From Candidatus Hodarchaeota archaeon (GTDB lineage Archaea; Asgardarchaeota; Lokiarchaeia; Sigyniarchaeales; SOKP01), in NCBI GenBank assembly GCA_048886685.1, contig JBHLKM010000009.1, positions 107,229-171,228 of the forward strand: 64,000 bases of DNA, written 5' to 3'. A program made the position numbers and the translations under genes. The notes under the pieces were generated by a model. The model had not been told where the DNA came from. It saw only the letters and a program-made list of their open reading frames with translations, and ran no database searches. Below, in pieces: positions 18,622 to 38,188 of the stretch; within the stretch, counting starts at the first letter, position 1; each line of letters opens with the position of its first letter.

Positions 18622-18687
18622 AGCACAAGGATTTTTGGTAACTTAACAGTAAACTTATCAAAATAATATAAAAAAAGGATAGAGACC

Positions 18688-20478: not shown

Positions 20479-20584
20479 ATAACAGAAAATAAGAAATTAT
20501 TATATGAAGTTTTCTAATTACTTACTGAATCCTACTCTCGAGCAATACTGAAATATTAAAAAAAATTATACTTTTTAATAAAAC

Positions 20585-20598
20585 ACTTGTTTATTTAA
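20585..20598 (+). promoter_or_regulatory. 14-bp element ACTTGTTTATTTAA upstream of the biotin carboxylase
   Basis: Identical element in the same relative orientation upstream of the carboxyltransferase-megasynthase operon (35662-35675, minus strand). Confidence 0.4.
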
Positions 20599-20632
20599 TT
20601 AATAGCATAGTTATAATAATTAACTTTCATTA

Positions 20633-22123
20633 TTGCATTGTATGATCAAATCTGTCTTAATTGCAAATCGTGGAGAGATTGCAGTTAGGGTCATTCGAGC
20701 CTGCCGGTCAAAAGACATTCAATCAATTGCGGTTTTTTCTGACACAGACAAAAATTCTCTCCATGTAAAAATGGCAGATGAGGCTTACAACTTAGGGAAT
20801 GAATCGGTTCAGAGCACTTATCTTAACATTCCAAAGCTGATTGAAGTAATTGAACGATCTAAAGCTGACGCAGTTCACCCAGGATATGGTTTTTTAAGTG
20901 AAAATGCAGAATTTGTTAGAAGAGTTACTAACCTTGGCAAAATCTTTATTGGACCAAGCCCAAGTACCATTGATTTCCTCGGTAATAAGATTAAAGCAAA
21001 AATACTTGCAAAAAAGGTCAATTTGCCTGTTTTACCTGGTTCAGAAGGATTTATTAATAGTTTAGATGAAGCTAAATCAGTAGCAGATGAGATTGGATAT
21101 CCGATAATAATTAAGGCTGCTTTTGGAGGAGGTGGTCGAGGAATGGAAATTGTTGAATCTGAGGAAAATATGGGTACTGCGTTAGAGAGCTGCCAATCAA
21201 TGGGATTAAAGTTTTTTGGAAGAAAAGAAGTTTTTATTGAAAAGTCAATTACAGCACCTCGCCATGTAGAAATTCAATTTATAGGAGATAATTTTGGTAA
21301 TGTTGTCCATTTAGGAGATCGGGAATGCACTATTCAACGATCTCACCAAAAGCTTATTGAGGAAGCCCCTTCCTTCTTAACAAGAGATGAAATTACCAAT
21401 TTAGGTGAAAGAACTTGTTTTTTGGCTCGTGAATTAAATTACTCAAATGTTGGGACGGCAGAATTTCTTTGGAAGGATGGTAACATCTACTTTAATGAAG
21501 TAAATCCAAGAATCCAAGTGGAGCATGTCGTTACAGAAATGGTTACTGGAATAGATTTGGTTGAAGAACAAATAAACATTGCTTCGAACAAACTATTAAA
21601 CTTTACTCAAGAGGAGATTTCATTACATGGACATGCAATAGAGTATAGGATAAATGCTGAAGATCCCCATAACTCATTCTTTCCTCAACATGGAAAAATA
21701 ACAAATTTAATAATTCCGGGAGGCCCAAAAGTACGTTTTGATAGCTATTTATACCCTAATTACGTTGTCCCTCATGATTTTGATTCATTAATAGGAAAAC
21801 TAGTCGTATGGGGAAGGAATCGTAAAAGAGCAATCAACCTTTCTAAACATGCTCTTAAAGAATTAGTTATCTCAGGAATAAAGACGAATTTAGATATGCA
21901 TAAAGTAATAGTTGAGACTTATGAGTTTAAAAAAGGTGAATTATCAACTGATTTCTTAAACAAAACAAATATTACTCATAATTTAAAAGATTTAGAGAGA
22001 AAGAAATTAGCAGCAGTATTTCAATTGGTTAAACAATTTAATTTTTCAATTCAACCTGAAAAAAAACATAAGAAAAAATCTAATAAATGGCGAGATATCG
22101 CAAAAATAGAGCAATTAAGTTAA
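20633..22123 (+). CDS. accC: biotin carboxylase subunit of acetyl/propionyl-CoA carboxylase
   Basis: ANRGEIA, HPGYGFLSEN, GGGGRG, RECTIQR, EVNPRIQVEH, RINAED; likely start MIKSVL. Confidence 0.93.
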   Translation: MHCMIKSVLIANRGEIAVRVIRACRSKDIQSIAVFSDTDKNSLHVKMADEAYNLGNESVQSTYLNIPKLIEVIERSKADAVHPGYGFLSENAEFVRRVTNLGKIFIGPSPSTIDFLGNKIKAKILAKKVNLPVLPGSEGFINSLDEAKSVADEIGYPIIIKAAFGGGGRGMEIVESEENMGTALESCQSMGLKFFGRKEVFIEKSITAPRHVEIQFIGDNFGNVVHLGDRECTIQRSHQKLIEEAPSFLTRDEITNLGERTCFLARELNYSNVGTAEFLWKDGNIYFNEVNPRIQVEHVVTEMVTGIDLVEEQINIASNKLLNFTQEEISLHGHAIEYRINAEDPHNSFFPQHGKITNLIIPGGPKVRFDSYLYPNYVVPHDFDSLIGKLVVWGRNRKRAINLSKHALKELVISGIKTNLDMHKVIVETYEFKKGELSTDFLNKTNITHNLKDLERKKLAAVFQLVKQFNFSIQPEKKHKKKSNKWRDIAKIEQLS

Positions 22124-22159
22124 AAAGAGAAAAAATACCTAATAAAGAGATTGTTATCA

Positions 22160-22675
22160 TTATAAAACAACATAATTTTCTTTCCCTTTTACTGTGGATA
22201 CACTTTCAATTTTAACTAGCGGTTGATCTTGACCAACATCATCTTCTACATTTACAAAGATTTGCATTATTTTTCCTTTAATTGGGGATAATATCCGATT
22301 TTTCATTTTCATTGCCTCTAATATCAACAATAATTGATCCTTTTCAACAAATTCTTGTTCTTCAATATGGATTTCCAAAATCTTTCCAGGAATGGGAGCA
22401 TTTACGGTTTCTTCTTTAACTTGTGGATTTTCATTGTTACTATCTAAAGATTTTAAATAAGGTTTAATTTCAATATCGATTTCTTCACCCTCTAAATATA
22501 GTACTCCATTGATATATTCCAAATTAAACTGACAATCTTCAAATGTTACTCGAAATAAATTTTCTGTTTCCTGAATAACTAAAGGAGTATAGATGTGGTC
22601 ATCAACTTTTATTTTTCCATCATCTATCGGTCGAACAACATAAGTTCTTCCTCGGAATTTTACTTTTTTCAGCAT
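22160..22675 (-). CDS. accB: biotin carboxyl carrier protein
   Basis: APIPG...LEAMKM biotinylation motif. Confidence 0.9.
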   Translation of the reverse strand: MLKKVKFRGRTYVVRPIDDGKIKVDDHIYTPLVIQETENLFRVTFEDCQFNLEYINGVLYLEGEEIDIEIKPYLKSLDSNNENPQVKEETVNAPIPGKILEIHIEEQEFVEKDQLLLILEAMKMKNRILSPIKGKIMQIFVNVEDDVGQDQPLVKIESVSTVKGKENYVVL

Positions 22676-22688
22676 ACTTGTTATCTTT

Positions 22689-23492
22689 TTAACTTGTTCT
22701 TATTGTTTTTACTAGATGAGAATCAAAGAAATCAATAAGATTTTCACACATTTGTTGAAAATGATTTTCATCTGTAAAGTTATGGTTAGCTCCATCAATT
22801 ATATCAATTTTTTTATTTTCAGATTGAACCTTATTGAAAAGTTGGTGAAAACCATGTTCTGGAAATAAGACATCCTTATTACCAGCGATTAAATAAAATG
22901 GTTTTAATAACTTATCAGCTAATCTAACAGGATTATATTGTCTCGTTTGTTCAGCATACTTTATTTTAAGATCGCCATCTGGAAATCGCATTTCTTTATT
23001 GCGCGTTAAAGCTTTTATGAAAAACTTAAACAAGGGATTTTTTGGTATAATTTCAGTATTAAAAACAGGGGAACGTATCGCAAGACATTGAACTCTTTTA
23101 TCTCTTACAGCATGGCAAAAAGCCATTGCACCTCCAAAACTTTCACCTAACAAGCCAATTCTAAGAGGATCTATTTCGGGATGATAGACTAATTGATTTA
23201 TCACTTGTTCAATATTAGCTTGAGCATCATAATAAGTAAATATCCCCGTACTACCTCTAACACCTTGATGATCATAAGTAAAATATGCTATATTATTATT
23301 AACAAAATGACATGCAAATCTCAGTTCATCTTCTTTAGGTGATTTTCCTGGCATTCCATTAACACGTATTACTAATGGGAAACAAGTGTTTTTAGAGTTT
23401 TCAGGCTCTATAATATCAGGTAAATACAGGATACTCTGTAGGATTTCAGTACGAACCTCAATTTCTATCATTTCCTTTCTCATTAGTATCAC
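22689..23492 (-). CDS. alpha/beta hydrolase, candidate stand-alone thioesterase of the megasynthase
   Basis: GESFGG nucleophile elbow, Asp (GNKD) and His (GANH); GTGA overlap with the megasynthase stop. Confidence 0.75.
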   Translation of the reverse strand: MILMRKEMIEIEVRTEILQSILYLPDIIEPENSKNTCFPLVIRVNGMPGKSPKEDELRFACHFVNNNIAYFTYDHQGVRGSTGIFTYYDAQANIEQVINQLVYHPEIDPLRIGLLGESFGGAMAFCHAVRDKRVQCLAIRSPVFNTEIIPKNPLFKFFIKALTRNKEMRFPDGDLKIKYAEQTRQYNPVRLADKLLKPFYLIAGNKDVLFPEHGFHQLFNKVQSENKKIDIIDGANHNFTDENHFQQMCENLIDFFDSHLVKTIRTS

Positions 23493-26400
23493 TGGATTAT
23501 TGGTTTGTTTTTAAAAGGTTTAATCTCACAGTACGAAAGAACATATTTTTCAGAAAATTCAACCCGTAATTGTAGATCTTTAAGATTTCTATTGATGTCT
23601 AACAAGTCATTTTTGGATTTTAAGGTAAATTTATTGTATTTTTTATTATATTTCAATTCAATGTCTCGGAAATTAATATTAAAGCCTTCCCCTATTGCTT
23701 TTGAGAAGGCTTCTTTCGCTGTCCAGTAGATTGTTCCCAGATAGGCATCGTCTAAAATAGTTTTTCTTTCTGATTCAGTAAATACCTCCTTATAGAATGA
23801 TGGGGATCGGGATTCAATTATCTCTAAATCAATGCCAACCAAATTTTTACTTATCATTGCTACTGAAAAATCATTGGAATGACTTATAGAAAGATTAAGT
23901 GGAATTATTTTATTCTCTTTGTTTGAGTAGTAATATGGCTTACCTTTTTCATCCTTTTGAATTTCAAAGTCATGATATGAACCATCAACAGCAATAATCC
24001 TACGATAACATTCTTTTGCGGCAATAATGCCAGAAAAATATTCAATTTTTCTTTTTATATTCCTAAAGCGCTTTGAGTTTTCTATCTCTGTTTCAGTCAG
24101 ATAAGTTTCAAAAAATTTCGGATTTATTTGATATAGATCTTTTAGTTTTGCAATAGGTAGAACTTGAATTTCGTTTTTAATTTTATTATTCTTTAGGTGG
24201 TAATACTCTTTTAAGGTAGTTAGATAATCAGAGAGGTTATTTGAGAGGTTTACTGTAATTTGTGCATGGATGATTTCTAGGTTTTCAATTTTCGCTATAA
24301 TTTCTTGATCTTCATCTAAAATTACCGAGTTATAATAAGATCTCTCCTCGTCTTTTTTTAAGAATTTAGCTACTATGTATTTTGGTCTTTGGTTTGATTT
24401 TATTTGAATAGAGGAGGCTTTTGAGGGAAGAGAGAGATGGTTATTTATGATGTAATCAAATAACGCTGCGGTTTGAAATACACATTCCATGGATAAGGGT
24501 TCAAATTGAAAATGATCCTCTTCCTCATTATTAATAATAGGAACTGTTGGAAGATCGATCTTTGTTACTATTTTTCCTTTCTCTAATTGAATAACTTCTT
24601 CTAGAACTTGAAATTTCTTCCCATGAAAGAAAAGCTCATAAATTTCAGTTTTATCAAGTAAAGGAATTAATGGATTTAAAATTAGATCTTTTTCCCATCT
24701 CATTTCTTTTACTAAATCATCGAACTGAGCATCGAAATGGTTTTTTATTAGTGGTTTTCCTTTTAGAACTGTGGGAAAAGTCTTTGATTGAAGTGATATC
24801 TTATTATTGGATTTATTAAATGTTAGTTCTACTTCTACTGACTTACCTACTGAAATTTTCAGGGGCGTGTGAAAATTAATATTTGAAATAGAGGTTAACA
24901 CCTTATCGAACACTCGATGGTAGAATTCTGCGAATGTTTCTAGAGCCATTACACCAGGAAATACAGGTTTTTTTTGAATTTGATGATCAAGAAGATATGT
25001 GTCGAATTCAGAATTTATGGTGTTAAAACCAATTATATATTCAGATTGATAATTTATTTTTTCTAACATAGGATATTCTTTTTTATCAATAACTTCCTCA
25101 ATATCAAGCATTTCCTCAAAGATCCCTAACTTCCCCGCAATTATATATTCCCCAGTGAAGTTGTTTAATACTAAATTGGTAAATATCTTTATACCAGTTA
25201 TTGAAGGAACAGGTGAAACTCCTGCTTGAGTAAGGATTTGTAAAGTGGAACCTTGAGTAGCCATACCAATATCTGCCCAAGCTGTCCAATCAAAAGTTAA
25301 AAATGGGATATTGCGTTGGTTGAATTCCCAAGCCATACGCGATAAATACGCATTAGCAAATGCATAATCAATTTGACCCTGATTCCCATAACGTCCAGCA
25401 ATTGAGGAAAAAGTTACAAAATATTTGACGTCTTGAATCTTTATATATTTGAGAATTTTTGAAAACCCTCCAACTTTAACATCAACAATTTTATGAGCCA
25501 TATTTAAATTTTTCTTCAAGAAACTTTTTGATTCTTCTATCCCAGCACCATGGATAACAACTGTTATCTGATTTTTAGTTTCTTCATTAATTGTTTGGAA
25601 GATGTTCTTCATTTTTTCATCATTAGTAACGTCTACTGCATAATATTGAACTGAAAGACCTTTTTTCTTCAAATTTTCGATATTACGAAGAGTATCTAAT
25701 TTGTCGAGGAATTTCTTCCATTCTCTGTTAATCATAACAGGAGTTACTTTCTCTAGTGTAGATTTCAATGACTTAACCAATTCTTCCTTTTTCTCACTCA
25801 ACATGTCCGGGGTGTATTGTAAATATTCTAAAAATGAATCATCGTACGGGCTTAATCCTAAAAGAATTAGTTGTGGTTTAGTATGGTTTGTTAATTCATC
25901 AATACAAGCAAAAGTTATTCCTTGTGCTCCTCCTGTAACCAATAATACATCTTCTTCTGTTATCGAAGAATAATTCAATTTTGGGAGCTTTTCTACTTTT
26001 TTTCTTAATAATGTATAACGTACATTTTCCCTGTAGGCTATTTCCTCAAGTTTATCCCAACTCAAGAACTCTTGAGTAATCTGTCCTAAATTCATTGAAG
26101 AAATAAGCTTGATCGGAATCTGAAATTCGCGATTGATTGTTTTTATAAAAGCACCTATACTAGAAGCAAGGGGATTAGCTCCTTGTTTCCAACCGAAAGT
26201 AGTATCTGGAGAAATAACTAAGATTTTTTCTAATATTGATAAATTTAAAGATTGAAAAATGAGAAAAAGACTGTCGAAAATGTTTAAACTATCATTAATG
26301 GTATATTGACTATTATCTGGAATAACCAATATGAGTATCTTGAAATCTATATCAAATGGAAATTCACTATTATTATTATTTAGATCTTTAACTAAATTTT

Positions 26401-29400
26401 CATTAACATCAACATTGAAAATTTGAACATTTAATCCAAAATTTTCAAAATCTTTGCTTAAGTTTTTGTAATTTGATAATCCTGAGTTAATGTTAAGAAT
26501 TAATGTATTAATATCCTTGTATTTCAGATTTTCCTTCGAGGGGAGCAATTTAAAAACTCGGGAAGGAACTACTTTTGACACATAAATTTGGTCATCATTT
26601 TCATTTTCTGATTTTTCTTTTACCTCGCTGATATTTTTGACAGGTTCTAATTCCATATCAACTGATTGCGATTTTTTATTGATGAACTGGATTACAAATT
26701 CAGTGATCTCATTAGGCGTACGGATGTCAGCTATGTTAATTTCAACATTATCTTCTAGTTTGTAATATTCACGCAAGACTCCAAAGATTTCTGCTTGCTT
26801 TACTGTATCAATCCCCAAGTCTTCTTCCAAATCATAAGAATCATCGATATCAGTAAGGTCATAACCAGTTTTGTCAGCAATAATTTTTTTTACTAAATTT
26901 TTTACCTGATTTATATCATCAATTTCATTAGATTTTAATACAATACTTTGCTGTTTAATGCTAATATCTGTTTCCATATTCTGGTCATTTAAGAATTCTC
27001 GCATTTTAAGAATTATATTCTTAATACTGCCAAGTCCTACCAAATTTATTTCTGTGTCCTCTGAGATTTTCAAATCATTCCGAAGTTCTCCAAAAATCTC
27101 CGCTTGTTTGACAGTATCAATACCTAAATCCTCTTCTAAATCAAACTCAGGATCGATATCTTCAATATCGTATCCTGTCTTTTTAGAAATGATTTCAATT
27201 AACTTATTTTCAAGTGATTTATTATCTAAACCCGAGGAACTATTACTAGAAACAATATCATGACCTAAAGACTCATTGAGCATGTGAACGATATCATTTA
27301 TAGTGCGATAGTCTGCTATATTGAATGAATCATCAATTTCAATTTTCCATTTTTCTCGGATTTCTCCGAAAATCTCTGCTTGTTTGACAGTATCAATTCC
27401 AAGATCTTCCTCCAAATCATAGGTTTCTTCAATGTCTTCTGGATTATAACCGGTCTTTAAAGCGATGATTTTTTTGATCTCAACTATCATATCGATTTTA
27501 CCAACCGAAATTGATTGCTGAGGGATTTCTGTTTCTTTTGGTGATTGAATTGTAGTAATTATAGCAGAAATACGTTCTGTATTCATCTTTAAGACTCTAC
27601 CATCCATGAATACTTGTGTCCCGCTCCCACCTACATTTTGAAGCCATTGTTCATAGTTTGGTTTGGTAAAACGATTATCATATGATACTAAACGGAATAA
27701 GACAATGGCTAATTGTGAACCGAATCCAGCGGCAAAACGTAAAGCATATTTCTTTCGTTCTCTTACTCCTTTTGAAAAGTTGAAATTTGAATAGTTTGAA
27801 TCTATCTTATTAAAATTCGCTATCGGGGGAATTTTTCCTTTCTCCATTGATTTAATTGCCACAGCTTCTTCAATACCTGCACCCATCGCATGACCAGTAT
27901 ATCCCTTCGTATTAATTATAATCATATCATAAGCATTTTTACCAAATGTATTTTCTAATGCTCTTAATTCTGATTCCGCACTTCCACCTCGAGCAGGGGA
28001 ATAAGTTTCATGACTTACAAACATCCCTTCATTAGCCAATTCTCTTTTACTAATACCATGTACTTTTTCCATCTTTAAAATAAAATCGTTAAGTCTTTGG
28101 GAAATATCATCCTTATCTAATCGTGTACCATGATAAGCGCTATTCCCAAAATAAGAACCAAGAATTTCTACAATTGGTTTTACTCCTCGAGCTTCAGCTT
28201 CGGAATTTTGTTCAATAACAAATGCACTTGCTCCTGCACCTAATACAATTCCATTCCTTCCTTCTCCAAAGGGAAGTACTGCTTCCTCCCATCGAGATTT
28301 TGTTGTAGCGGCTCCACTTGCAATAAATCCTGCACCAATCCATTGAAAAAGGTTCTTACTTGTTACATTATCGGCAGTGATTACAACAACTCGTTTACAT
28401 CTCCCAGTTCGAATCCAGTCTTCTGCAATACCTATTGCTTGAGGTGCAGAAGCACAAGCTGCATTAATAGATGTATTTGGTCCTTTAGCTTTTATTAATT
28501 GAGCAAATTGAGAATGTCCCATAGATAAAACTCTAAATAAAAATGAGCGATTAAAATTTTCTACACTTTCCTCACTAGAATTTAATTGATTGAATTTAAA
28601 ATTAGAGCACTGTTGAGAATCTTCTGCAAAATTATCGTATCCTGGAAATGCAGATGCAAAAATGATACCTGTATCATCTTGTAATGATTCTGGTAAAGCC
28701 CAGTCACCAGATAATGTCTTACCCGTAGAGGTTTTAATAGTGCTACGAACTAATGGAATTCCCGCGTCTTTAAGTGCATCATATCCTGCACAAATTGCTA
28801 GTTGGAATGTAGTATCTAAAGCATTTAGGATTTTAGGATTAAGTTGATAATCCTCTGTCGGGTTAAAATCCCCCATCTGTCCTGCCAAGTGAATTACTTT
28901 AGAAATATCATCTATAGGCACAAATTTAGCATTACCATTAGGGGATTTTTCCAAACGAATTATATTTTTTTGATATAATTGTTCTTGAAATTCACTACTT
29001 ACCGATTCGATTAGATTAACTCCATCTAAAATATCATCGATATTTTTATCATCAAAAATTTTACGATTTTTGCCAGGAAGTCCAATACCTACACCAGTGA
29101 TTACGACAGGTGTAGAATTAAGCAGTGATCCTTTCTTATCATATTTATTTTCAATTGAAATATGATATTTCTTAAGATAATTATGAAATCCTTGAATCAT
29201 AACCGAAGACAAAAGTTCTTTTTGTTCTTCTAGAAATTCATTAAAAAATGGAAGTTGCTTTAATTTAGATAAGTCTTCATTCGAAATTAAAGAATTTTGA
29301 TTTTTTTCAAGTGTAGGGGATTTTTTCGATATTTTTGGTTTTTGATCTGGAATAGCTGGTGGTTGAGTTTTGATTTCATCAATGGGGCTAGCTGATTTTA

Positions 29401-32400
29401 TACTACTGAACTTCTCAAAAATCTTTTGAATATGCTCTTCTTCAGAAGATTTTGGTGAAAGTGTAAAATCAACCTCAATATCTTTATATTTTTTTAATAT
29501 ATCTTTTGTAAAAAAGAAGAGAGCCTTTTTTGGTCCGATTTCTATAAATTTTCGGCCCCCATTTTGATAAATATTCAAAATCTCATCAACCCATCTAACA
29601 GGGGATGTAATTTGCTTAAGAAGGATTGATTTTATTTTGTCAGGATTATCAGGATATATTTTGCCTGTTACATTACTAAATACAGGTATTCTAGGAGATT
29701 TAAATTCTATTGTTTTCAAAAAGCTTTCCAATTTTTCTTCAGCGTGAGTGACAAATTTAGAATGAAATGCATTTGACACGTTTAATTTTAGAGCTCGAAT
29801 TTCTTTTTCTGAAAATACTTTCACTACAGATTCAACTGCCGATAACTCTCCTGATATGACCGTTTGAGATGTAGAGTTATAATTTGATATTGAAACATCA
29901 TCAATTGATAGCTCATCTAAAGTTTTCTCAACAACTTCCGGTGATATAAATATCGCCGCCATAGAACATTGAACACCAAGAGGTAACTTTGACATTGCTT
30001 CTCCCCTTTTGATTACAATTTTTAACCCATCTTCAAAACTCAATACTCCTGCTGTAGTTAAAGCCACGAATTCCCCTAAGCTATGACCTCCAACAATTCC
30101 CGGAGTTAAATCTTTAGTTTTAAAAAGTTGCAATAGAGCCATTTCAACTGAATAAATAGCCGGTTGAGTGAACTCCGTTTGTTGTAATCTATTGGAATTT
30201 TCTTCTTGTGATAAATTTGGAGATCCAAAAATTACTTCTAGTAGGTCAAAACCACCAAAATCTTTACATATATCGTTTGCTTTATCAAGTGTATCTTTGA
30301 CGACTTGGAACTTTTCGTATAATTCCCTTGACATCCCTACATATTGACTTCCTTGACCACTAAAAAGAAAACATAAATCGGTTGAATACGGAGTACTCAA
30401 ATGATCAAGTTGAGGTTCAAAATGATCATACATATGTTCTTCACATAGAGGATACGATCTAGCTTTTTCTATCGATGATATCTCGTAGGATTGAGGTAAG
30501 AATTCTTCGAGGATTACATGATAATTTGCCCCTCCAAATCCGAATGATGAAACACCGGCTCTTCTTATTCCTGTTTTGGGAGTTAACCACTCAATTGGTT
30601 CCGTATTAACATAATAAGGAGCCGTATCCCAATTTATTGTGGGATTAAGAGTTGAAATGTTAATAGATGGAGGAATAATTTTATTATGTAATGCTAATAC
30701 TGTTTTAATAATACCAGCTATACCTGCAGCACTTTTGAGGTGTCCAATTTGACTTTTTATTGACCCAATTGCTAGTTTTTGCTTTTCATTTCTTTCAGAA
30801 AACACATCGTCTAGCACATTTAATTCAGTAGCATCTCCAACGACTGTAGATGTTCCATGGCATTCAAGATATTGAATGTCTGATGGGCTTATATTACTAT
30901 TCTTTAAAGCCCGTAATATGGCTAATTTTTGTCCATCTGGATTGGGTGCAGTAATGCCCTTACCTTTTCCATCTGAAGAACCCCCATACCCCATAATAAT
31001 CGCATAAATTTTGTTCTCATCACGTAATGCATCTTCAAGGCGTTTTAAAACTAAAAATCCAGCTCCTTCTCCCATAACAAACCCGTTAGCACGAGCATCA
31101 AAGGGATATGAGCCATCTTCAGACAAAGCACCAATTTTACAGAATTTAATGTATGTTTGAGGATCCATTGAACTATCGACCCCCCCTACAAGGACTGTAT
31201 CATAATCCTTAACTAGTAACCCATTAACAGCTGTATCAATTGCGGCTAAACTAGAAGCACAAGCAGCATCAATTGTCATGCTTTTACCAGTTAAATTAAA
31301 CACGTTTGCGACTCTACCAGCAATTATGTTTGACAATTCACCTGGCATAGTATCTTCGTTAATCACTGGAATTTGATTAATTATTTTATCTTCAAGGAAA
31401 TTTAGAAGATTATTTTTTTCTTCTTTCTTCAGAATCATCAGAGAGCTTGCTTCATTGATTCTATATTTGATTTCATTAAAAAGTATACGTTTATTGCTGA
31501 GACGTTGTTTATCTCCCCCTAAGGAGTTTCCAACGATAATTGCAATGGGCAAACGTTTTTTCCCGTCAAAAGGATACCCCGCATCAAGAAGTGCTTCTTT
31601 TGCTGTAATAATAGCCCATATCTGAACTAAGTCCATCCTTTCTGCCATTTTTGGAGGAATTCGATATTTAATAGATTTAAATTCAAATTTTTTCACAAAT
31701 CCACCAATTTTTGTATATGATTTATCGGGGGATGAATGATCTTTATCATAAAAGATTTCAGGTTCCCATCTGTCTATGGGAACTTCTGTAATCGAATAAT
31801 TTTTATTCACAATATTTTTCCAGAATTGTGGAATGTCCTCAGCATCTGGAAAGAGACCTCCTAAGCCAATGATGGCTATTTTATTTACTATGGACAACTT
31901 TTTTTGTGATTTTTTATCCTTTTCCATTATTACTTGACCTAAAGAATCTTTTATTGTTTGATTCGATATTTTTTTGATAAATTTGTAACCCCCTTCAATT
32001 ATATCATAATGTATTTGGGGGATTGTTCTAATTGTATTTTGTAAGGAAATAGAATCACCTGTCATAAATGCACCTTTAACTACTTGGTCTTTTACTGAGA
32101 TCGAAGTAAATTGGGACTTCTCGCTCCCTTCTATATGATTATCATTCCAAATCTCAGCTCTGGAAGCTATTCTTAGTGCACCTAAATTGTCTTTCTCATA
32201 CAATTCTTTTCTTTGCGAAATAGAAATACCTTGCGCTTTTCGCAAAAATTCTTGCTTAATAGTGTGATGGGAAAATTCGGTAGAGATTACCCTTGCTCGA
32301 GTATTTACAGTTGTGCCAATCACTTTTGTAGATGAATTATTAAGTAATAATTCTTGATAAACTGGGGATAAAGCTCTAGTTGTCACAATTTCTTCGCTTA

Positions 32401-34060
32401 AGAGGTAAGCAGTTCCCATTTGAATACCAGGATTTATAATATCTAAATGATTTCCAATCATACCTCCCAACATAGCTGAACTTACTTCATCAATAATCCC
32501 ACCAGCAAAAATAACATTTAATTTCTCGGTGAATATATCTTTTTCCTTATCCAAATATTCTAAAATACACTCCCAAAGAATGAAAGATGATAATGTTCCA
32601 AAATGACCTCCACACTCACTACCTTCTAATATCATATAATCGAGGTTACTTTTTATGGCTTTTTTAAACATAGAAAGCACAGGTGTGTGTATTAAGACCT
32701 TATTGCCTAAATTCTTAACTTGAACACCAAGATCAATAGTACCAGCGGCAATTAAGGTGATTTCGGGACCATACTTTTTAATACATCTAAGATGTTCATC
32801 CCTACGAGTCTTTACAGCTTCTAAACCTATAATACCACAACCGTATGGCTTCTTTGATAAATCTTTCACACTAATGTTTGATAAGAGTTCAACTGTTTCA
32901 GTTGATAATAATCCACCTAAAGCTAATATTGGAAGGGCACCATTATCTGCTACTTTTCTAGCAAATTCTAATTTATCAGAGATATTCGCCATTGGCCCTT
33001 GAATAATGGGATATGTAATGTTTAGTTGTTTCGCAAATTCAGAATTTTTGGCAAAAGGCCAATGTTCTATACTATTTTGAATCTGATTAGAGATTATTTT
33101 AACTAAATCATTTAGAAATTTTTTTAAATCGCCGAACTTGGCTAAAATATAGTTCGCAAAACAAATACCATGATCACTTGGTAAAAAAGAATGGTTGGGC
33201 TCTGTATCAGAATATATATGACAATGATTTTGAAATTTGGTAATTCTATGAAGAAATTCATGTTTGAGAGTAAAATAATCATTGTTAAATTCTTCATTTA
33301 ATTTTGAAAAATCTTTTTGCTCAACTTCCTTTATTGATCGAATTGATTTATTAGCCAATTTTCCAATCAAACGATAATTATATCGTAAAGTTTCATGTAC
33401 AAGATAAAAATCATTCTCTTCAATTGTCTTAATATAATTTTTAAATTTTTGATTTAAAGGACATTCAGGTAGCAAGAATAACTGACTTTCTAATACGATT
33501 CCTAAAGTCCCACCAATAAATGCTGAACATATGTTATATACCCCAAAACCTCCCTGAATTATGAATGGAAGACCTGCTTTTTGGAATTCTTGAATGAGTA
33601 TAAAAGTATTTTTAGTTCCGACTAAACCACCTGCTTCATTCCCTTTAACAAGAAAAAAGTCTGCCCATTCCGCGGTTTCATAAGCTTCTTCTAAGTATAA
33701 CACTTCGGAAAGAATTAATTTTGAATTTTTCTGCATTATAAGAATTTCCTTATAATTTGGAGAGAATGCACAGATGATAATTGGAATTAGTTCTTGAAAT
33801 TCGAGTGCATAAAGGACTTCTTGAGAAGAAATCCGGATACCCCATATGTGATCAGAAGATAAAGATGATTTTAATTTATTAAAAAGTATTTTACATTGAT
33901 CAATATTAAGTCCTTCAAAATCTACTAAACCAATTCCCCCGGTCTGGCATATTTGAACTGAAAGTGAAGGATCTGTTATACCTTTTGGTGAATAACCCCA
34001 AATAGGAATTCTGTTTTTTAAAATTTGCTGGATATTCTTTTTCTTTTTCATAAAAATCAA
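23489..34060 (-). CDS. type I iterative FAS/PKS megasynthase (PUFA-synthase-related): ER*-ER-KS-MAT-KS-ACPx3-KR-DH-PPTase
   Basis: FabK/PfaD-like barrels (~31980-34060; GPMANISD, EGSECGGH); KS1 ~30505-31885 (DAACASS, HGTS, KSQIGH); AT ~29530-30380 (GQGSQ, GHSLG, AFHS); KS2 ~27690-29115 (NAACAS, SHETYS, KGYTGH); three ACPs ~26680-27490 (DLGIDTVKQAE); KR ~25140-25950 (TGGAQGI, DYAFAN); DH ~24260-25070 (LLDHQIQKKPVFP); PPTase ~23520-24140 (ISHS, GIDLE, WTAKEAFSKA). Confidence 0.92.
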   Translation of the reverse strand: MIFMKKKKNIQQILKNRIPIWGYSPKGITDPSLSVQICQTGGIGLVDFEGLNIDQCKILFNKLKSSLSSDHIWGIRISSQEVLYALEFQELIPIIICAFSPNYKEILIMQKNSKLILSEVLYLEEAYETAEWADFFLVKGNEAGGLVGTKNTFILIQEFQKAGLPFIIQGGFGVYNICSAFIGGTLGIVLESQLFLLPECPLNQKFKNYIKTIEENDFYLVHETLRYNYRLIGKLANKSIRSIKEVEQKDFSKLNEEFNNDYFTLKHEFLHRITKFQNHCHIYSDTEPNHSFLPSDHGICFANYILAKFGDLKKFLNDLVKIISNQIQNSIEHWPFAKNSEFAKQLNITYPIIQGPMANISDKLEFARKVADNGALPILALGGLLSTETVELLSNISVKDLSKKPYGCGIIGLEAVKTRRDEHLRCIKKYGPEITLIAAGTIDLGVQVKNLGNKVLIHTPVLSMFKKAIKSNLDYMILEGSECGGHFGTLSSFILWECILEYLDKEKDIFTEKLNVIFAGGIIDEVSSAMLGGMIGNHLDIINPGIQMGTAYLLSEEIVTTRALSPVYQELLLNNSSTKVIGTTVNTRARVISTEFSHHTIKQEFLRKAQGISISQRKELYEKDNLGALRIASRAEIWNDNHIEGSEKSQFTSISVKDQVVKGAFMTGDSISLQNTIRTIPQIHYDIIEGGYKFIKKISNQTIKDSLGQVIMEKDKKSQKKLSIVNKIAIIGLGGLFPDAEDIPQFWKNIVNKNYSITEVPIDRWEPEIFYDKDHSSPDKSYTKIGGFVKKFEFKSIKYRIPPKMAERMDLVQIWAIITAKEALLDAGYPFDGKKRLPIAIIVGNSLGGDKQRLSNKRILFNEIKYRINEASSLMILKKEEKNNLLNFLEDKIINQIPVINEDTMPGELSNIIAGRVANVFNLTGKSMTIDAACASSLAAIDTAVNGLLVKDYDTVLVGGVDSSMDPQTYIKFCKIGALSEDGSYPFDARANGFVMGEGAGFLVLKRLEDALRDENKIYAIIMGYGGSSDGKGKGITAPNPDGQKLAILRALKNSNISPSDIQYLECHGTSTVVGDATELNVLDDVFSERNEKQKLAIGSIKSQIGHLKSAAGIAGIIKTVLALHNKIIPPSINISTLNPTINWDTAPYYVNTEPIEWLTPKTGIRRAGVSSFGFGGANYHVILEEFLPQSYEISSIEKARSYPLCEEHMYDHFEPQLDHLSTPYSTDLCFLFSGQGSQYVGMSRELYEKFQVVKDTLDKANDICKDFGGFDLLEVIFGSPNLSQEENSNRLQQTEFTQPAIYSVEMALLQLFKTKDLTPGIVGGHSLGEFVALTTAGVLSFEDGLKIVIKRGEAMSKLPLGVQCSMAAIFISPEVVEKTLDELSIDDVSISNYNSTSQTVISGELSAVESVVKVFSEKEIRALKLNVSNAFHSKFVTHAEEKLESFLKTIEFKSPRIPVFSNVTGKIYPDNPDKIKSILLKQITSPVRWVDEILNIYQNGGRKFIEIGPKKALFFFTKDILKKYKDIEVDFTLSPKSSEEEHIQKIFEKFSSIKSASPIDEIKTQPPAIPDQKPKISKKSPTLEKNQNSLISNEDLSKLKQLPFFNEFLEEQKELLSSVMIQGFHNYLKKYHISIENKYDKKGSLLNSTPVVITGVGIGLPGKNRKIFDDKNIDDILDGVNLIESVSSEFQEQLYQKNIIRLEKSPNGNAKFVPIDDISKVIHLAGQMGDFNPTEDYQLNPKILNALDTTFQLAICAGYDALKDAGIPLVRSTIKTSTGKTLSGDWALPESLQDDTGIIFASAFPGYDNFAEDSQQCSNFKFNQLNSSEESVENFNRSFLFRVLSMGHSQFAQLIKAKGPNTSINAACASAPQAIGIAEDWIRTGRCKRVVVITADNVTSKNLFQWIGAGFIASGAATTKSRWEEAVLPFGEGRNGIVLGAGASAFVIEQNSEAEARGVKPIVEILGSYFGNSAYHGTRLDKDDISQRLNDFILKMEKVHGISKRELANEGMFVSHETYSPARGGSAESELRALENTFGKNAYDMIIINTKGYTGHAMGAGIEEAVAIKSMEKGKIPPIANFNKIDSNYSNFNFSKGVRERKKYALRFAAGFGSQLAIVLFRLVSYDNRFTKPNYEQWLQNVGGSGTQVFMDGRVLKMNTERISAIITTIQSPKETEIPQQSISVGKIDMIVEIKKIIALKTGYNPEDIEETYDLEEDLGIDTVKQAEIFGEIREKWKIEIDDSFNIADYRTINDIVHMLNESLGHDIVSSNSSSGLDNKSLENKLIEIISKKTGYDIEDIDPEFDLEEDLGIDTVKQAEIFGELRNDLKISEDTEINLVGLGSIKNIILKMREFLNDQNMETDISIKQQSIVLKSNEIDDINQVKNLVKKIIADKTGYDLTDIDDSYDLEEDLGIDTVKQAEIFGVLREYYKLEDNVEINIADIRTPNEITEFVIQFINKKSQSVDMELEPVKNISEVKEKSENENDDQIYVSKVVPSRVFKLLPSKENLKYKDINTLILNINSGLSNYKNLSKDFENFGLNVQIFNVDVNENLVKDLNNNNSEFPFDIDFKILILVIPDNSQYTINDSLNIFDSLFLIFQSLNLSILEKILVISPDTTFGWKQGANPLASSIGAFIKTINREFQIPIKLISSMNLGQITQEFLSWDKLEEIAYRENVRYTLLRKKVEKLPKLNYSSITEEDVLLVTGGAQGITFACIDELTNHTKPQLILLGLSPYDDSFLEYLQYTPDMLSEKKEELVKSLKSTLEKVTPVMINREWKKFLDKLDTLRNIENLKKKGLSVQYYAVDVTNDEKMKNIFQTINEETKNQITVVIHGAGIEESKSFLKKNLNMAHKIVDVKVGGFSKILKYIKIQDVKYFVTFSSIAGRYGNQGQIDYAFANAYLSRMAWEFNQRNIPFLTFDWTAWADIGMATQGSTLQILTQAGVSPVPSITGIKIFTNLVLNNFTGEYIIAGKLGIFEEMLDIEEVIDKKEYPMLEKINYQSEYIIGFNTINSEFDTYLLDHQIQKKPVFPGVMALETFAEFYHRVFDKVLTSISNINFHTPLKISVGKSVEVELTFNKSNNKISLQSKTFPTVLKGKPLIKNHFDAQFDDLVKEMRWEKDLILNPLIPLLDKTEIYELFFHGKKFQVLEEVIQLEKGKIVTKIDLPTVPIINNEEEDHFQFEPLSMECVFQTAALFDYIINNHLSLPSKASSIQIKSNQRPKYIVAKFLKKDEERSYYNSVILDEDQEIIAKIENLEIIHAQITVNLSNNLSDYLTTLKEYYHLKNNKIKNEIQVLPIAKLKDLYQINPKFFETYLTETEIENSKRFRNIKRKIEYFSGIIAAKECYRRIIAVDGSYHDFEIQKDEKGKPYYYSNKENKIIPLNLSISHSNDFSVAMISKNLVGIDLEIIESRSPSFYKEVFTESERKTILDDAYLGTIYWTAKEAFSKAIGEGFNINFRDIELKYNKKYNKFTLKSKNDLLDINRNLKDLQLRVEFSEKYVLSYCEIKPFKNKPIIQ
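26680..27490 (-). repeat. three tandem acyl-carrier-protein repeats inside the megasynthase
   Basis: II..KTGY....I....DLEEDLGIDTVKQAEIFG.[IL]R repeated three times. Confidence 0.85.
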
Positions 34061-34072
34061 CCAGTTTTATAG

Positions 34073-35644
34073 TTATACCGGGGAGATCCCATGTTTTCTT
34101 CTAGGAGTCTGTTCACGTTTAGTTTCAAAAAAGTTCAGATATTTAATGATCTCGCTGCGAGTTTCATGTGGAAAGATTACTTTATCTATATGTCCTTTTT
34201 CAGCGACTTGATAAGGATTTGAAAATTCTTTTTTATAGCATTCAGTGAAATCCTTTAATATAGCATCGGGATCTTCTACATCCTTTAAATGATTTCGAAA
34301 CAGAATCTTACATGCACCTTCAGCACCCATCACGGCAATTTGGGCCGAATTCCATGCGATATTAACATCTGCTCCCAATTCTTTTGAATTCATGACAATA
34401 TAAGCACCGCCATAAGCTTTACGAATAATAACAGTAATTTTTACGATTGTAGCTTCTGAATATGCATATAACATTTTAGCACCATGCCTGATAATTCCAG
34501 AGTGTTCTTGTTTAACGCCAGGCATAAATCCCGGAACGTCTACTAGGGTCAAAAGAGGTATATTAAAAGCATCACAGAATCTAATAAATCTTGTCGCTTT
34601 ATCCGATGCATTGTAATCTAGAGCTCCACTAAGGAACATAGGTTGATTCGCAATTATACCCACAGTCTGATTTTCTATTTTCCCGAACCCAATTATTATA
34701 TTTTTTGCCCAATCTGGAAAAAGTTCTAAAAATGAATCTTGATCCACTATTACATTAATTACACTTTTCATGTTATATGGTTCATCTTCATTTTTTGGTA
34801 CTATTTGTTCTAATAAATAGGGATCTTCACCATAAATTTGCTTTAAAGAGTGAGGAATATCATCTAAATTATTTGACGGGATATATGATAATAGTTTCTT
34901 GGTGAATTCTAATGCTTCTTCTTCAGTATCTAAGGCTTTATGACATACCCCTGAAATAGTCGAATGAACTTCTGAACCTCCTAATTCTGAAAAAGAGGTA
35001 TTTTCTCCTGTTACTGCATTTACTACTTGAGGTCCTGTTATAAACATATAAGCGTTCTTTCCACCCATAATAATAAAATCTGTTAATGCTGGACTATAAA
35101 CTGCCCCTCCAGCAGAAGTGCCTAAGATAACAGAAATTTGAGGGATAATTCCTGAAGCTCGAACATTTCGATAAAAAATATCCCCTAACCCGTCAAGGGC
35201 ATCAACTCCTTCTTGAATACGAGCACCTCCCGAATCTATTAATCCAATTAAAGGACAACCCATTTTTAAGGCTAAATCCATGATTTTACAAATTTTCTGA
35301 GCATGAGCTTTCCCTATAGTCCCTCCCAATACTGTAAAATCTTGACTATAAATGAATACTCTTCGACCCTCTATTGTACCATAACCAGTTATTACCCCAT
35401 CTCCAAGAAATTTCTTTTTTTCCATACCAAATTTATTACACTGATGCTTAACAAATGAATCAATTTCTACAAAGGTTCCGAAATCTACCAGAAATTCGAG
35501 TCTTTCCCTAGCAGTTAATTTACCCTTTTTATGTTGAATATCAATATGATCTTGTCCACCCCCTAATTTGGACTCATTTCGTAACTCTTGTAGCTTCTCT
35601 GTCAATTCAAAGTTATCTTCTGATTTACCATCCTTTAAAATCAT
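34073..35644 (-). CDS. acyl-CoA carboxylase carboxyltransferase subunit (PccB/AccD single-chain type)
   Basis: GKLTARER, QDFTVLGG, DSGGARIQEG, DVPGFMPG, RKAYGGA, KHG.SP. Confidence 0.92.
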   Translation of the reverse strand: MILKDGKSEDNFELTEKLQELRNESKLGGGQDHIDIQHKKGKLTARERLEFLVDFGTFVEIDSFVKHQCNKFGMEKKKFLGDGVITGYGTIEGRRVFIYSQDFTVLGGTIGKAHAQKICKIMDLALKMGCPLIGLIDSGGARIQEGVDALDGLGDIFYRNVRASGIIPQISVILGTSAGGAVYSPALTDFIIMGGKNAYMFITGPQVVNAVTGENTSFSELGGSEVHSTISGVCHKALDTEEEALEFTKKLLSYIPSNNLDDIPHSLKQIYGEDPYLLEQIVPKNEDEPYNMKSVINVIVDQDSFLELFPDWAKNIIIGFGKIENQTVGIIANQPMFLSGALDYNASDKATRFIRFCDAFNIPLLTLVDVPGFMPGVKQEHSGIIRHGAKMLYAYSEATIVKITVIIRKAYGGAYIVMNSKELGADVNIAWNSAQIAVMGAEGACKILFRNHLKDVEDPDAILKDFTECYKKEFSNPYQVAEKGHIDKVIFPHETRSEIIKYLNFFETKREQTPRRKHGISPV

Positions 35645-35661
35645 AATAATCCCATATTTAT

Positions 35662-35675
35662 TTAAATAAACAAGT
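35662..35675 (-). promoter_or_regulatory. 14-bp element ACTTGTTTATTTAA upstream of the carboxyltransferase-megasynthase operon
   Basis: Exact match to 20585-20598; overlaps the palindrome TTTATTTAAATAAA (35657-35670). Confidence 0.4.
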
Positions 35676-36059
35676 AATTATTTTTATCAAAAGTTAATTT
35701 ATAAAATTATTACTTGAAGACACACTATTATTAGTATTACGGGTTTGACCATATATTATTAAAAATTCTTCTTTTTTTTAATAAACCTATAATCGAGATT
35801 TTTATGAGAAGATAATTAATAATTTATTGAATTAATAAACTAATTTCAGATTTTAATATAATTTAATTCAATTTCTAAATTTGAACGTTTATAAATTTTC
35901 AATTAACTTATATAGTAAGACTTTTTTCGAGAATTATCCATTTTTTTATTTTTTGAATTAATTTAATAAAAAATCAGACAATAAATTTGAAAACAATTTA
36001 TATTAACCCGTGTATTTATTTTATTAATCTCTCTTTTAAGCAGCAGATTAGAATAAAAT

Positions 36060-36815
36060 ATGTTCTTAAAAATAAAGATTGTTCACATTGACGAAACTAA
36101 ATCTACCCAAGACAGTATAACCGAATACCTTAAAAATGATTACTATTCGTCACTATTGTTAGTTGCGAAAACGCAAACAAAAGGTCGTGGAAGAAAACAA
36201 GATGACTGGCATTCTCCAGAGGGAGGATTTTGGGCAACTCTGGGATTAACCACTTCATTAACTTTGAATGAATCACAATTAGCTTTGTTCCACTATTTTA
36301 CAGCAACATTATTATCACGAATTATTAAGGAAGAATATGATTTACAAGTTCAAATTAAGTGGCCTAATGACATATTATATGAAAATAGAAAACTAGCAGG
36401 AATCTTAATCGATTATGTAATATGTTCCCAAGAAAATTATATACTGATTGGAACGGGAGTAAATTTAAATAATTCAAGTAATGAGATGCCGGAAAGTTTA
36501 AAATCATCAGCAATTTCAATAAAAGATATATTACATAAACCAGTATCAATTGATACTTTTGCTCTAAAAATTTGTTTTTATGCAAACGAATATTATTCAC
36601 CAATTATAGAATGTAATCAAAAAAAAATTCTAGATTTAATTCAAGAATATAATCAAAACTCTCGAATTTTCGGTAAAGATGCTATTCTTGATGATTTACA
36701 AAAATATTATTGCCATGGAATTAATAAAGAAGGATTATTGCAATTTTCGAATAAAAACTCAAAGTTAAATTTAAAAATTGATGATTTAACAAGGATAAAA
36801 AAGATAATTTTCTGA
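36060..36815 (+). CDS. birA: biotin-protein ligase (class I, no HTH)
   Basis: STQ, QTKGRGR, W.SP.GG, IKWPND, KLAGIL, GTGVN. Confidence 0.9.
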   Translation: MFLKIKIVHIDETKSTQDSITEYLKNDYYSSLLLVAKTQTKGRGRKQDDWHSPEGGFWATLGLTTSLTLNESQLALFHYFTATLLSRIIKEEYDLQVQIKWPNDILYENRKLAGILIDYVICSQENYILIGTGVNLNNSSNEMPESLKSSAISIKDILHKPVSIDTFALKICFYANEYYSPIIECNQKKILDLIQEYNQNSRIFGKDAILDDLQKYYCHGINKEGLLQFSNKNSKLNLKIDDLTRIKKIIF

Positions 36816-36821
36816 TAAGCA

Positions 36822-38051
36822 TCACATAGTCTCTACGAGTATGGAAATAATATTATTACCGAAACCTCCGAAGTTGCATGTAATTCCAGCTTCTGCACCT
36901 TCGACCTGTCGTTTCCCAGCTTCACCTCTTAATTGCCAAACTAACTCAACAATTTGAGCAACTCCTGTCGCACCTAAAGGATGTCCTCGTGCTTTTAATC
37001 CTCCTGAGGGATTTATAGGAATTTTTCCCCCAATTTCAGTTTGTCCGTTATGAGCTGCTTTTGCCCCTTCTCCTTTTTTGAAGAAGCCAATATCTTCTGA
37101 TTGGACTGCTTCAAGGATCTCAAATGCGTCATGCAGTTCAGCTACATCTATATCTTTGGGGGATTTTTTTGCCATTTTGTATGCTTGATCTGAACATAAT
37201 CTTAAAGCTTTTAGGGTAGTAAGGTCTTCGCGTTCAAATACGATGTGAGTATCTGTTGCTTGACCTATACCTGAAATCATAATAGGTGTATCAATAAAAT
37301 CCTTAGCTTTTTCAGCATTACATAAAACTAAAGCTGCTGCTCCATCTGAGATGGGACAAATATGAAAAAGTCTTAAAGGATCGGCGATTATTGGATTTAC
37401 TTCATCATCTTTTAGAAAATCATGAATGTTGTTCCAATTACCCCTTCCCTTTTGAGTGGCACTCTTCATAAAATCATCAATTGCCCTTTGAAAATGTGCA
37501 TTCGGGTTTAAAACTCCATTTTTATGGTTTTTAATCGCGATATCTGAGATCCATTCAATTTTAGCATTATATTTTTCAAGATATACTCGTGTTAATAAAC
37601 CCGCGAAAGAAGGAAGAGAAACACCATGAGGTTTTTCTGCTTCGGGATGTGTTAAAGTGGCAACATTGGAAGTAATATAGCCAGGAGTCGTAATATGAGT
37701 CATTTTTTCTCCACCAACCACTAATACTAAATCACTCATTCCTGAGGCAATTGCTTGAAAACCAGCTTTTATTGCTGATCCTCCACTAGCAGGTCCATTT
37801 TTAATATCATCTGCTGCTGCAGGAATCAAACTGATTCTATCTACTAAAGCACTCGCAATACCAGATAAATGATTGAGAATTTCTGGACTCATAACACCTA
37901 CATACACCGAATCAAAATCTTTATCCCCAGTGTTGGAATCTTCAATAGCTTCTAAAGATGCTTCACATAAGAGATCCATTAATCCTTTGTCTTGTAGTCT
38001 ACCGAATTTAGTATGCCCTACTCCAATAATTGCTACCTTGTTCATTATCAT
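36822..38051 (-). CDS. archaeal/SCP2-type thiolase-family protein (catalytic Cys absent)
   Basis: GGEKM, ISDGAAA, ELHDAF, NPSGGLKARGHPLGATG; NGPASG in place of NACASG. Confidence 0.85.
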   Translation of the reverse strand: MIMNKVAIIGVGHTKFGRLQDKGLMDLLCEASLEAIEDSNTGDKDFDSVYVGVMSPEILNHLSGIASALVDRISLIPAAADDIKNGPASGGSAIKAGFQAIASGMSDLVLVVGGEKMTHITTPGYITSNVATLTHPEAEKPHGVSLPSFAGLLTRVYLEKYNAKIEWISDIAIKNHKNGVLNPNAHFQRAIDDFMKSATQKGRGNWNNIHDFLKDDEVNPIIADPLRLFHICPISDGAAALVLCNAEKAKDFIDTPIMISGIGQATDTHIVFEREDLTTLKALRLCSDQAYKMAKKSPKDIDVAELHDAFEILEAVQSEDIGFFKKGEGAKAAHNGQTEIGGKIPINPSGGLKARGHPLGATGVAQIVELVWQLRGEAGKRQVEGAEAGITCNFGGFGNNIISILVETM

Positions 38052-38188
38052 AAAGAATTATAGGTATTTAAAAAATCTTCTTAGACTTTTTAAATTTTCT
38101 GATATTCAAATAACTTAAGATCTTTTCACACAATTTTATTTTCTAATAAACAAACCTAATTCAAAATGTAAAAAAAAGGGATAAACAA

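What the first reader, a model, noticed from the sequence alone, without database searches (positions are those of the whole stretch)
20633..36815. Complete ACP-dependent type I fatty-acid/polyketide synthase cluster in an apparently Asgard archaeal genome
Seen: a 10.6-kb gene encodes ER-KS-MAT-KS-3xACP-KR-DH-PPTase. It is co-transcribed with a carboxyltransferase, an alpha/beta hydrolase and BCCP, and flanked by biotin carboxylase and BirA. The locus therefore holds the predicted functions for making malonyl-CoA, activating carriers, elongating, fully reducing and releasing an acyl chain. Flanking genes are archaeal or Asgard-like (LeuRS type, Rab-like GTPases, TfrAB, DUF35), and by eye the cluster is as AT-rich as its flanks, unlike katG. 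Established: archaea make isoprenoid ether lipids and are generally regarded as lacking ACP-dependent FAS/PKS systems. Inference: this archaeon could make fatty acids or a lipid-like polyketide de novo, which bears on the lipid divide in eukaryogenesis.
Basis: partly seen in the sequence, partly recalled or inferred. Interest (0 to 1): 0.97.

Follow-up and report, generated by a model that had tools for sequence, protein, structure and literature searches.

The report
Asgard archaeal fatty-acid-type megasynthase cassette
A Loki-type Asgard archaeon carries a real, intact six-gene cassette for building fatty-acyl chains on carrier domains, which archaea are said to lack; the cassette is near-universal in most Heimdall-group Asgards, and its carriers have threonine where known carriers have serine.

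Summary
Confirmed and not a contaminant. A 3,523-aa ORF (23489-34060, minus) reads ER'-ER(FabK)-KS-AT-KS-ACP3-KR-DH-PPTase with every catalytic residue intact, inside a six-gene cassette with a biotin carboxylase set, BirA and a serine hydrolase. Contigs bridge both junctions at flat depth. The gene occurs in about 68 of 398 Asgard genomes: 52 of 59 in five Heimdall-group families, patchy in Lokiarchaeia, not found in the presumed Hodarchaeales. It is a fused variant of the bacterial 'Type R' secondary-lipid synthase (Shulse and Allen 2011), not a relative of animal or fungal FAS by architecture. Asgard copies form one clade; the Loki copy nests inside the Heimdall copies, implying transfer. 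Two results point to saturated acyl chains: the one family lacking the ER domain is the only Asgard family with a FabI-like gene (10/12 versus 0/386), and Heimdall carriers also hold FakA and PlsY, sometimes beside the cassette. All three carriers have Thr at the phosphopantetheine Ser (1,382 Thr versus 25 Ser family-wide). Product, expression and Thr modification are untested. This scan noted the same system before in other genomes; I found only a passing literature mention.

The parts
20633..22123 (+). Biotin carboxylase subunit (496 aa), convergent on the operon
   Evidence: Pfam Biotin_carb_N/CPSase_L_D2/Biotin_carb_C; conserved in cassette
22160..22675 (-). Biotin carboxyl carrier protein (171 aa)
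   Evidence: Pfam Biotin_lipoyl; AMKM motif
22689..23492 (-). Alpha/beta serine hydrolase (267 aa), candidate thioesterase
   Evidence: Hydrolase_4; GESFG nucleophile motif and HxF motif conserved across Loki and Heimdall cassettes; role inferred
23489..34060 (-). Type R-like megasynthase, 3523 aa (database protein starts 3 codons later, 3520 aa)
33077..34024 (-). ER' : degenerate first FabK-like repeat lacking the catalytic His
   Evidence: two NMO stretches; His position is L146 and variable
31967..33064 (-). ER: FabK/PfaD-type FMN enoyl reductase, His486
   Evidence: best PDB hits are FabK enzymes; His invariant in 62 of 62 ER-bearing Asgard rows
30497..31885 (-). KS1, PfaA/PKS-type, C934-H1068-H1107
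29468..30376 (-). AT, S1327, R1352, xAFH malonyl-type motif
27686..29119 (-). KS2, FabF-like, intact C1869-H2017-H2057 (not a chain-length factor)
   Evidence: PDB alignment to FabF; invariant in 78 Asgard and 21 non-Asgard rows
26681..27493 (-). Three ACP domains, each GIDTVKQ; Thr codons at 27389-27391, 27113-27115, 26804-26806
   Evidence: Thr aligns with the Ppant Ser of solved ACPs; only PP-binding domains in the genome
25256..25963 (-). KR, K2862-S2886-Y2899-N2903
24266..25078 (-). Double-hotdog DH, H3026 with Glu3192 at the usual Asp position
23525..24178 (-). Fused Sfp-type PPTase, D3411-E3413, WxxKE motif
34073..35644 (-). PccB-type carboxyltransferase (523 aa), the only one in the genome
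   Evidence: found in exactly the same 10 of 60 relatives as the synthase
36060..36815 (+). Biotin-protein ligase (BirA, 251 aa), divergent
   Evidence: TIGR00121 above cut-off

Best explanation
An iterative, fully reducing, carrier-protein-dependent acyl-chain synthase. BirA biotinylates BCCP; BC/BCCP/CT make malonyl-CoA; the fused PPTase primes the three carriers, most likely on threonine; AT loads malonyl; the two active KS domains share initiation and elongation (most likely one primes or does short chains, the other elongates); KR, DH and the FabK-type ER reduce each round to a saturated chain; the hydrolase releases a free fatty acid. In Heimdall-group carriers the acid can enter glycerolipid through FakA/FakB and PlsY; in this Loki host, which lacks Fak and PlsX, it would need re-activation (probably as acyl-CoA) before the PlsY/PlsC-like enzymes act, and the cassette is an optional source of chains. 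Shown here: genes, domain order, catalytic residues, conservation, co-occurrence. Inferred: every chemical step, the product and its use.
For: All catalytic residues invariant in 78 Asgard sequences. The carboxyltransferase is the genome's only one and tracks the synthase exactly in 60 relatives. The family whose synthase lacks ER (f15) is the only one of the Asgard families with a FabI-like gene, 10 of 12 versus 0 of 386, directly after the synthase in G114 and G115. In the five Heimdall-group families with the synthase, PlsY is in 59 of 59 and a FakA-like domain in 49 of 59 genomes; plsY lies next to birA in both circular Heimdallarchaeum genomes, a DegV gene just upstream of the cassette in G141, and G141 has a fakA-fakB-plsY run. 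Tandem ACPs and Type R membership point to fatty acyl products (PMC3098273).
Against: No product, transcript or protein evidence. No Type R product is known. E. coli ACP S36T is not phosphopantetheinylated (PMC3340395), so Thr priming needs unproven chemistry. The cassette is in only 11 of 132 genomes of the host family while PlsY is in 75, so it is not the essential lipid source here; this genome has no FakA-like, DegV or PlsX match. The hydrolase is missing beside the f15 synthases. Kin are not independent: the FabI swap may be a single event.
Confidence: 0.6

Rival explanations
1. It makes a specialised long-chain lipid rather than ordinary membrane fatty acids: for example KS2 joins two chains head-to-head (Pks13/OleA-like logic) or the chain is very long, hydroxylated or methyl-branched (the PccB-type carboxylase could supply methylmalonyl-CoA).
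For: A second, divergent but intact KS is invariant across the family; bacterial Type R hosts were classed as secondary-lipid producers; patchy in Lokiarchaeia; CT is PccB/MmdA-like and a methylmalonyl-CoA mutase lies 11.6 kb away.
Against: AT motif is xAFH, the malonyl type by established PKS rules; no tailoring genes are conserved beside the cassette; FabI substitution and PlsY/Fak linkage look like ordinary fatty-acid metabolism.
Confidence: 0.3
2. The Thr carriers are not phosphopantetheinylated; the enzyme runs on CoA thioesters, on only Ser-bearing carriers, or uses the Thr domains structurally.
For: E. coli S36T cannot be modified; some homologs keep Ser in some or all carriers.
Against: No other PP-binding domain in the genome; PPTase motifs intact and fused; the residues around Thr are invariant; Thr and Ser interchange at this column in otherwise intact synthases.
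Confidence: 0.07
3. Chimeric assembly or bacterial contamination of the MAG.
For: The genome is a MAG with 8.4% estimated contamination; the family is mostly bacterial.
Against: Single contigs bridge the left (X2, 18500-21292) and right (X1, 20647-38499) junctions at flat depth; orthologs at 67-80% identity in many independent Loki MAGs; present in single-contig genomes, beside exosome/ribosomal genes in Ca. Harpocratesius repetitus; composition typical; Asgard copies form one clade.
Confidence: 0.01

Closest known systems
Type R secondary-lipid (Pfa-like) synthase of Shulse and Allen 2011 (PMC3098273): Koribacter, Solibacter, Elusimicrobium, Roseiflexus
   Same: Core KS-AT-KS(CLF in that paper)-ACPn-KR; PPTase and acetyl-CoA carboxylase linked. 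A Korobacteraceae locus fetched here has the published gene order, the same Thr carriers and groups in the same family.
   Different: ER didomain and PPTase are fused into the chain; the 'CLF' has a full Cys-His-His; a three-subunit PccB-type carboxylase, BirA and hydrolase flank it; archaeal host. The ER...PPTase fusion also occurs in some Desulfobacterota-type bacteria, so the layout is not unique to Asgards.
PfaA/PfaD of bacterial PUFA synthases (TIGR02813)
   Same: PfaA-like KS-AT-ACPn-KR-DH (907 bits, best NCBIfam hit) and FabK-type ER.
   Different: Below the 1010-bit cut-off; no PfaB AT, no KS-CLF pair, no FabA-type DH/isomerase domains found; Thr carriers.
Fungal/CMN FAS I and animal FAS I
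   Same: One chain with a whole reductive cycle; fungal FAS also has an FMN barrel ER and a fused PPT (own knowledge).
   Different: Different domain order; neither appears among 56 PDB matches to KS1-AT at E<=1e-60; animal ER is MDR-type; fungal PPT is AcpS-type (own knowledge). No tree with eukaryotic FAS was built.
ACP-independent archaeal fatty-acid pathway of Sulfolobus (Schmerling et al., bioRxiv 10.1101/2024.07.05.601840)
   Same: Archaeal de novo fatty-acid synthesis as the outcome.
   Different: [quoted passage not shown]
PKS cluster noted in a Shark Bay Heimdallarchaeota MAG (Chen et al. 2020, PMC7472256)
   Same: Probably the same gene family: Heimdall KS domains with PUFA as nearest NaPDoS class.
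   Different: Only a passing mention; no architecture, distribution, carrier motif or lipid link; identity of their sequence not checked here.

Membership tests
Type R secondary-lipid synthase | Domain order KS-MAT-CLF/KS-ACP(3-6)-KR in one protein | tested here: met
   three ACPs; extra N-terminal ER and C-terminal DH-PPT
Type R secondary-lipid synthase | PPTase directly downstream | tested here: met
   present as a fused C-terminal domain rather than a separate gene
Type R secondary-lipid synthase | KS homology with Type R members | tested here: met
   Korobacteraceae and Acidobacteriota proteins align over KS1, AT and KS2 and share Thr carriers; the five named reference proteins themselves were not fetched
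Type R secondary-lipid synthase | Second KS is a catalytically dead chain-length factor (as annotated in 2011) | tested here: not met
   Cys-His-His intact here and in the Korobacteraceae/Acidobacteriota rows, so the 2011 label looks wrong for the family rather than for this member
PUFA synthase (PfaABCD) | TIGR02813 above cut-off | tested here: not met
   907 versus 1010 bits
PUFA synthase (PfaABCD) | PfaB/PfaC with KS-CLF and FabA-type DH/isomerase | tested here: not met
   no such domains in the protein or cassette
Type I fatty acid synthase (functional) | KS, AT, KR, DH, ER and carrier in one chain with intact active sites | tested here: met
Type I fatty acid synthase (functional) | Serine phosphopantetheinylation site in ACP | tested here: not met
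   Thr in all three carriers
Type I fatty acid synthase (functional) | Makes saturated fatty acyl chains from malonyl-CoA | not testable with these tools
   needs reconstitution
Animal or fungal FAS I lineage | Shared domain order and closest-homolog status | tested here: not met
   order differs; not among the PDB matches at E<=1e-60
Animal or fungal FAS I lineage | Phylogenetic grouping of KS with eukaryotic FAS | not tested
   no eukaryotic sequences were available for the trees

The most novel reading that the evidence does not exclude
Most Heimdall-group Asgards, and some Lokiarchaeia by transfer, make fatty acids de novo with an anciently acquired single-chain synthase whose carriers are phosphopantetheinylated on threonine, and route them through FakAB and PlsY into ester glycerolipids, giving mixed membranes in close relatives of the eukaryotic host. 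This would be both a first ACP-dependent FAS pathway in Asgards and, to my knowledge, a first natural threonine-linked carrier.
Probability: 0.4. Interest if true: 0.95.

Novelty: new variant of a known kind. Interest (0 to 1): 0.8.

Why it matters
[quoted passage not shown] One gene, present in circular genomes from enrichment cultures (sizes match Ca. Heimdallarchaeum spp.; Ca. Harpocratesius repetitus by name) and in Lokiarchaeum GC14_75, makes the question 'can Asgards make bacterial-type lipid tails?' testable by expressing a single protein. Separately, a family of thousands of synthases with Thr at the carrier site challenges the rule that phosphopantetheine goes on serine. It does not explain the origin of eukaryotic FAS.

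Tried and rejected
Contamination/chimera: rejected. A joint 20314-35943 in runs X3/X4 rests on a 21-base side at 90% likeness and was disregarded. No RNA holder listed for the stretch: no evidence on expression. The three weak phylum hits (G040, G116: 32-36% identity, 420-440 aa, FabF-like ORFs on 3.7-6 kb contigs) are not the synthase. A quick IQ-TREE on KS1+AT alone split the Asgard clade, but the constrained tree was 72.9 lnL better, the three-domain tree gave one clade, and KS2 alone was unresolved; the careful bootstrap run did not finish; models were LG+G4 without mixture. PlsX not found in five genomes. G1PDH-strength match not found in this genome, G043 or G141, but present in G074 and G114. 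Ten literature searches found no description of the cassette or of natural Thr carriers; the library lacks most subscription papers, so this does not prove novelty. No structure or complex prediction was run: a KS dimer or ACP-PPTase pair would pass by likeness to solved structures. Family names are inferred from source labels, genome sizes and marker distribution, and source labels are noisy.
Full report
Observation. The 3,523-aa protein reads, N to C: two FabK/NMO-type repeats, KS1, AT, KS2, three ACPs, KR, double-hotdog DH and an Sfp-type PPTase. Upstream on the same strand is a PccB-type carboxyltransferase; downstream a serine hydrolase and BCCP; biotin carboxylase converges and BirA diverges. 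Spacing of 12, -4 and 13 nt suggests a four-gene operon; no RNA run was available.

It is resident archaeal DNA. The window lies on a 171-kb contig of a 4.4-Mb genome with archaeal LeuRS and four Ras-family GTPases nearby. GC and tetranucleotide use are ordinary for the genome. In two runs, single contigs cross the left or the right junction at flat depth, though these runs may be the source of the assembly. More telling, orthologs at 67-80% identity over the full length occur in many independent Promethearchaeota MAGs, including Lokiarchaeum GC14_75 (KKK41857.1), and at 53% in the one-contig genome of Ca. Harpocratesius repetitus, where the cassette sits just after exosome, proteasome and L37ae genes. 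Two further one-contig carriers are 3.08 and 3.33 Mb, the sizes of the circular Ca. Heimdallarchaeum genomes.

Distribution. KS1 matched 70 of 398 Asgard genomes, two of them false FabF-like hits. It is patchy in the host's group (9 of 51 in the genus, 11 of 132 in the family, 3 of 3 in the Harpocratesius genus) and near-universal in five families that I read as Heimdallarchaeaceae, Kariarchaeaceae, Gerdarchaeales and two small relatives (27/31, 11/12, 12/12, 2/3, 1/1). It was not found in f16/f17 (24 genomes), which I read as Hodarchaeales from source labels and sizes, nor in the remaining Asgard families. The same six genes travel together in Loki, Heimdallarchaeaceae and Gerd loci, with local inversions and changing neighbours. 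The carboxyltransferase is this genome's only one and occurs in exactly the same 10 of 60 relatives as the synthase, so it serves the synthase and not general metabolism.

Anatomy. In an alignment of 78 Asgard and 21 non-Asgard proteins, KS1 (C/H/H), AT (S, R, AFH), KS2 (C/H/H), KR (K/S/Y/N) and DH (H, E) are invariant, and the PPTase motifs are nearly so where the domain is present; the second ER repeat keeps its His and the first has lost it. KS2 is therefore not a chain-length factor; its best solved relatives are FabF enzymes. All three carriers read GIDTVKQ, and the Thr aligns with the phosphopantetheine Ser of solved ACPs. Across 470 homologs the site is Thr 1,382 times and Ser 25 times; a few synthases are mixed or all-Ser. 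These are the only PP-binding domains in the genome. E. coli ACP S36T is not modified (PMC3340395), so either the fused PPTase is adapted to Thr (my reading) or the carriers work otherwise. I was led to this by earlier scan notes and verified it here.

Family and origin. Shulse and Allen's Type R is KS-MAT-CLF-ACP(3-6)-KR with a PPTase gene and, in Koribacter, an acetyl-CoA carboxylase gene between them; no product is known. A Korobacteraceae locus fetched here has that order and Thr carriers. The family is large (3,935 clusters at E<=1e-30 in one search) and includes Desulfobacterota-type proteins with the same ER...PPTase fusion and two Thermoplasmatota-labelled proteins. On KS1+AT+KS2 the 31 Asgard rows form one clade (SH-aLRT 99), with Loki sister to Heimdallarchaeaceae (100). 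Holding the Heimdall-group rows together without Loki is rejected (AU p 7e-45). The simplest reading is one old gain in the Heimdall group outside Hodarchaeales and a later transfer into Lokiarchaeia; hidden paralogy with losses is not excluded, the donor is unresolved, and these are quick LG+G4 trees.

What it makes. Two comparative results favour saturated acyl chains. First, f15 synthases lack the ER domain, and a FabI-like gene is found in 10 of 12 f15 genomes and none of the other 386, directly after the synthase in two loci, with a FabH-like gene upstream. An enoyl reductase has been kept by replacement, though perhaps in one event. Second, the Heimdall-group carriers have PlsY (59 of 59) and a FakA-like domain (49 of 59); DegV/FakB reaches 9-11 copies in two genomes; plsY abuts birA in both Heimdallarchaeum genomes and G141 has fakA-fakB-plsY in a row. 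PlsX was not found in five genomes. By established bacterial biochemistry, free fatty acid to acyl-phosphate to lysophosphatidate is then complete, which also explains a releasing hydrolase. The link is looser in this Loki host: two PlsY-like and one double PlsC-like gene, GGGP synthase, no G1PDH-strength hit, no Fak, no PlsX, and PlsY is far commoner in the family than the synthase. Presumed Hodarchaeales often have FakA and PlsY without the synthase, which fits scavenging. So here the cassette looks like an optional de novo supply. A specialised product remains a real rival because of the second active KS and the PccB-type carboxylase.

Novelty. The family has been known since 2011, and one 2020 survey noted a PUFA-like PKS in a Heimdall MAG. 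I found no paper on the cassette, its spread in Asgards or Thr carriers, within a library that lacks most subscription journals. This scan has reported the same system in other Asgard and Poseidoniales genomes. It is a new variant of a known kind with high value for a standing question. It is not evidence for the ancestry of eukaryotic FAS: the domain order differs, and animal and fungal FAS are not among the close solved matches.

Noticed in passing
L107:6425-25921 (Korobacteraceae MAG): The bacterial Type R synthase is followed by a single-chain 1,878-aa acetyl-CoA carboxylase with BC, BCCP, ACC_central and CT, the eukaryote-style layout, and preceded by ETF-beta, ETF-alpha and an acyl-CoA dehydrogenase that could stand in for the missing ER.
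   Followed up: no
L062:7865-20000 and L063:1-8384 (G074, 3.08-Mb circular genome): The synthase is in two ORFs (1,506 and over 2,500 aa) with a repeated KS1 segment, and a second partial PPTase-hydrolase-BCCP copy follows; duplication or assembly artefact.
   Followed up: no
L060/L062, P0029, P0073, P0079: Heimdallarchaeum-type synthases carry one Thr carrier and two Ser carriers; P0079 has five Ser carriers. Natural controls for the Thr question.
   Followed up: partly
L088:6175-8710 (own genome, contig C13): Two tandem PlsY-like genes of about 400 aa, twice the usual length, with a C-terminal half that has no Pfam hit; this long form is typical of the host family.
   Followed up: no
L089:8331-10007 (own genome, contig C21): One 558-aa protein with two PlsC-type acyltransferase domains.
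   Followed up: no
G074 and G141 whole genomes: DegV/FakB expanded to 9 and 11 copies, PlsY to 3 and 6 (up to 8 in that family), suggesting heavy fatty-acid handling.
   Followed up: partly
window 7340-9016: Methylmalonyl-CoA mutase 11.6 kb from the cassette; not conserved beside the cassette in other genomes.
   Followed up: partly
window 18688-20478 and 36822-38051 versus L028: pepF and the thiolase flank the cassette here but are adjacent to each other, on one side of the cassette, in G024: local rearrangement around the cassette.
   Followed up: no
L009; P0049, P0054, P0064: Records labelled Thorarchaeota, Bathyarchaeia, Zixibacteria and Methanobacteriota carry copies that match Loki, Gerd or Kari copies; probably mislabelled or misbinned.
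   Followed up: partly
P0285, P0295: Two non-Asgard family members are labelled Thermoplasmatota and fall outside the Asgard clade, so other archaea hold the family by a separate history.
   Followed up: no
window 63143-64000: C-terminal part of a catalase-peroxidase-like gene by eye, at about 37% GC in the last 2 kb, running off the window end.
   Followed up: no
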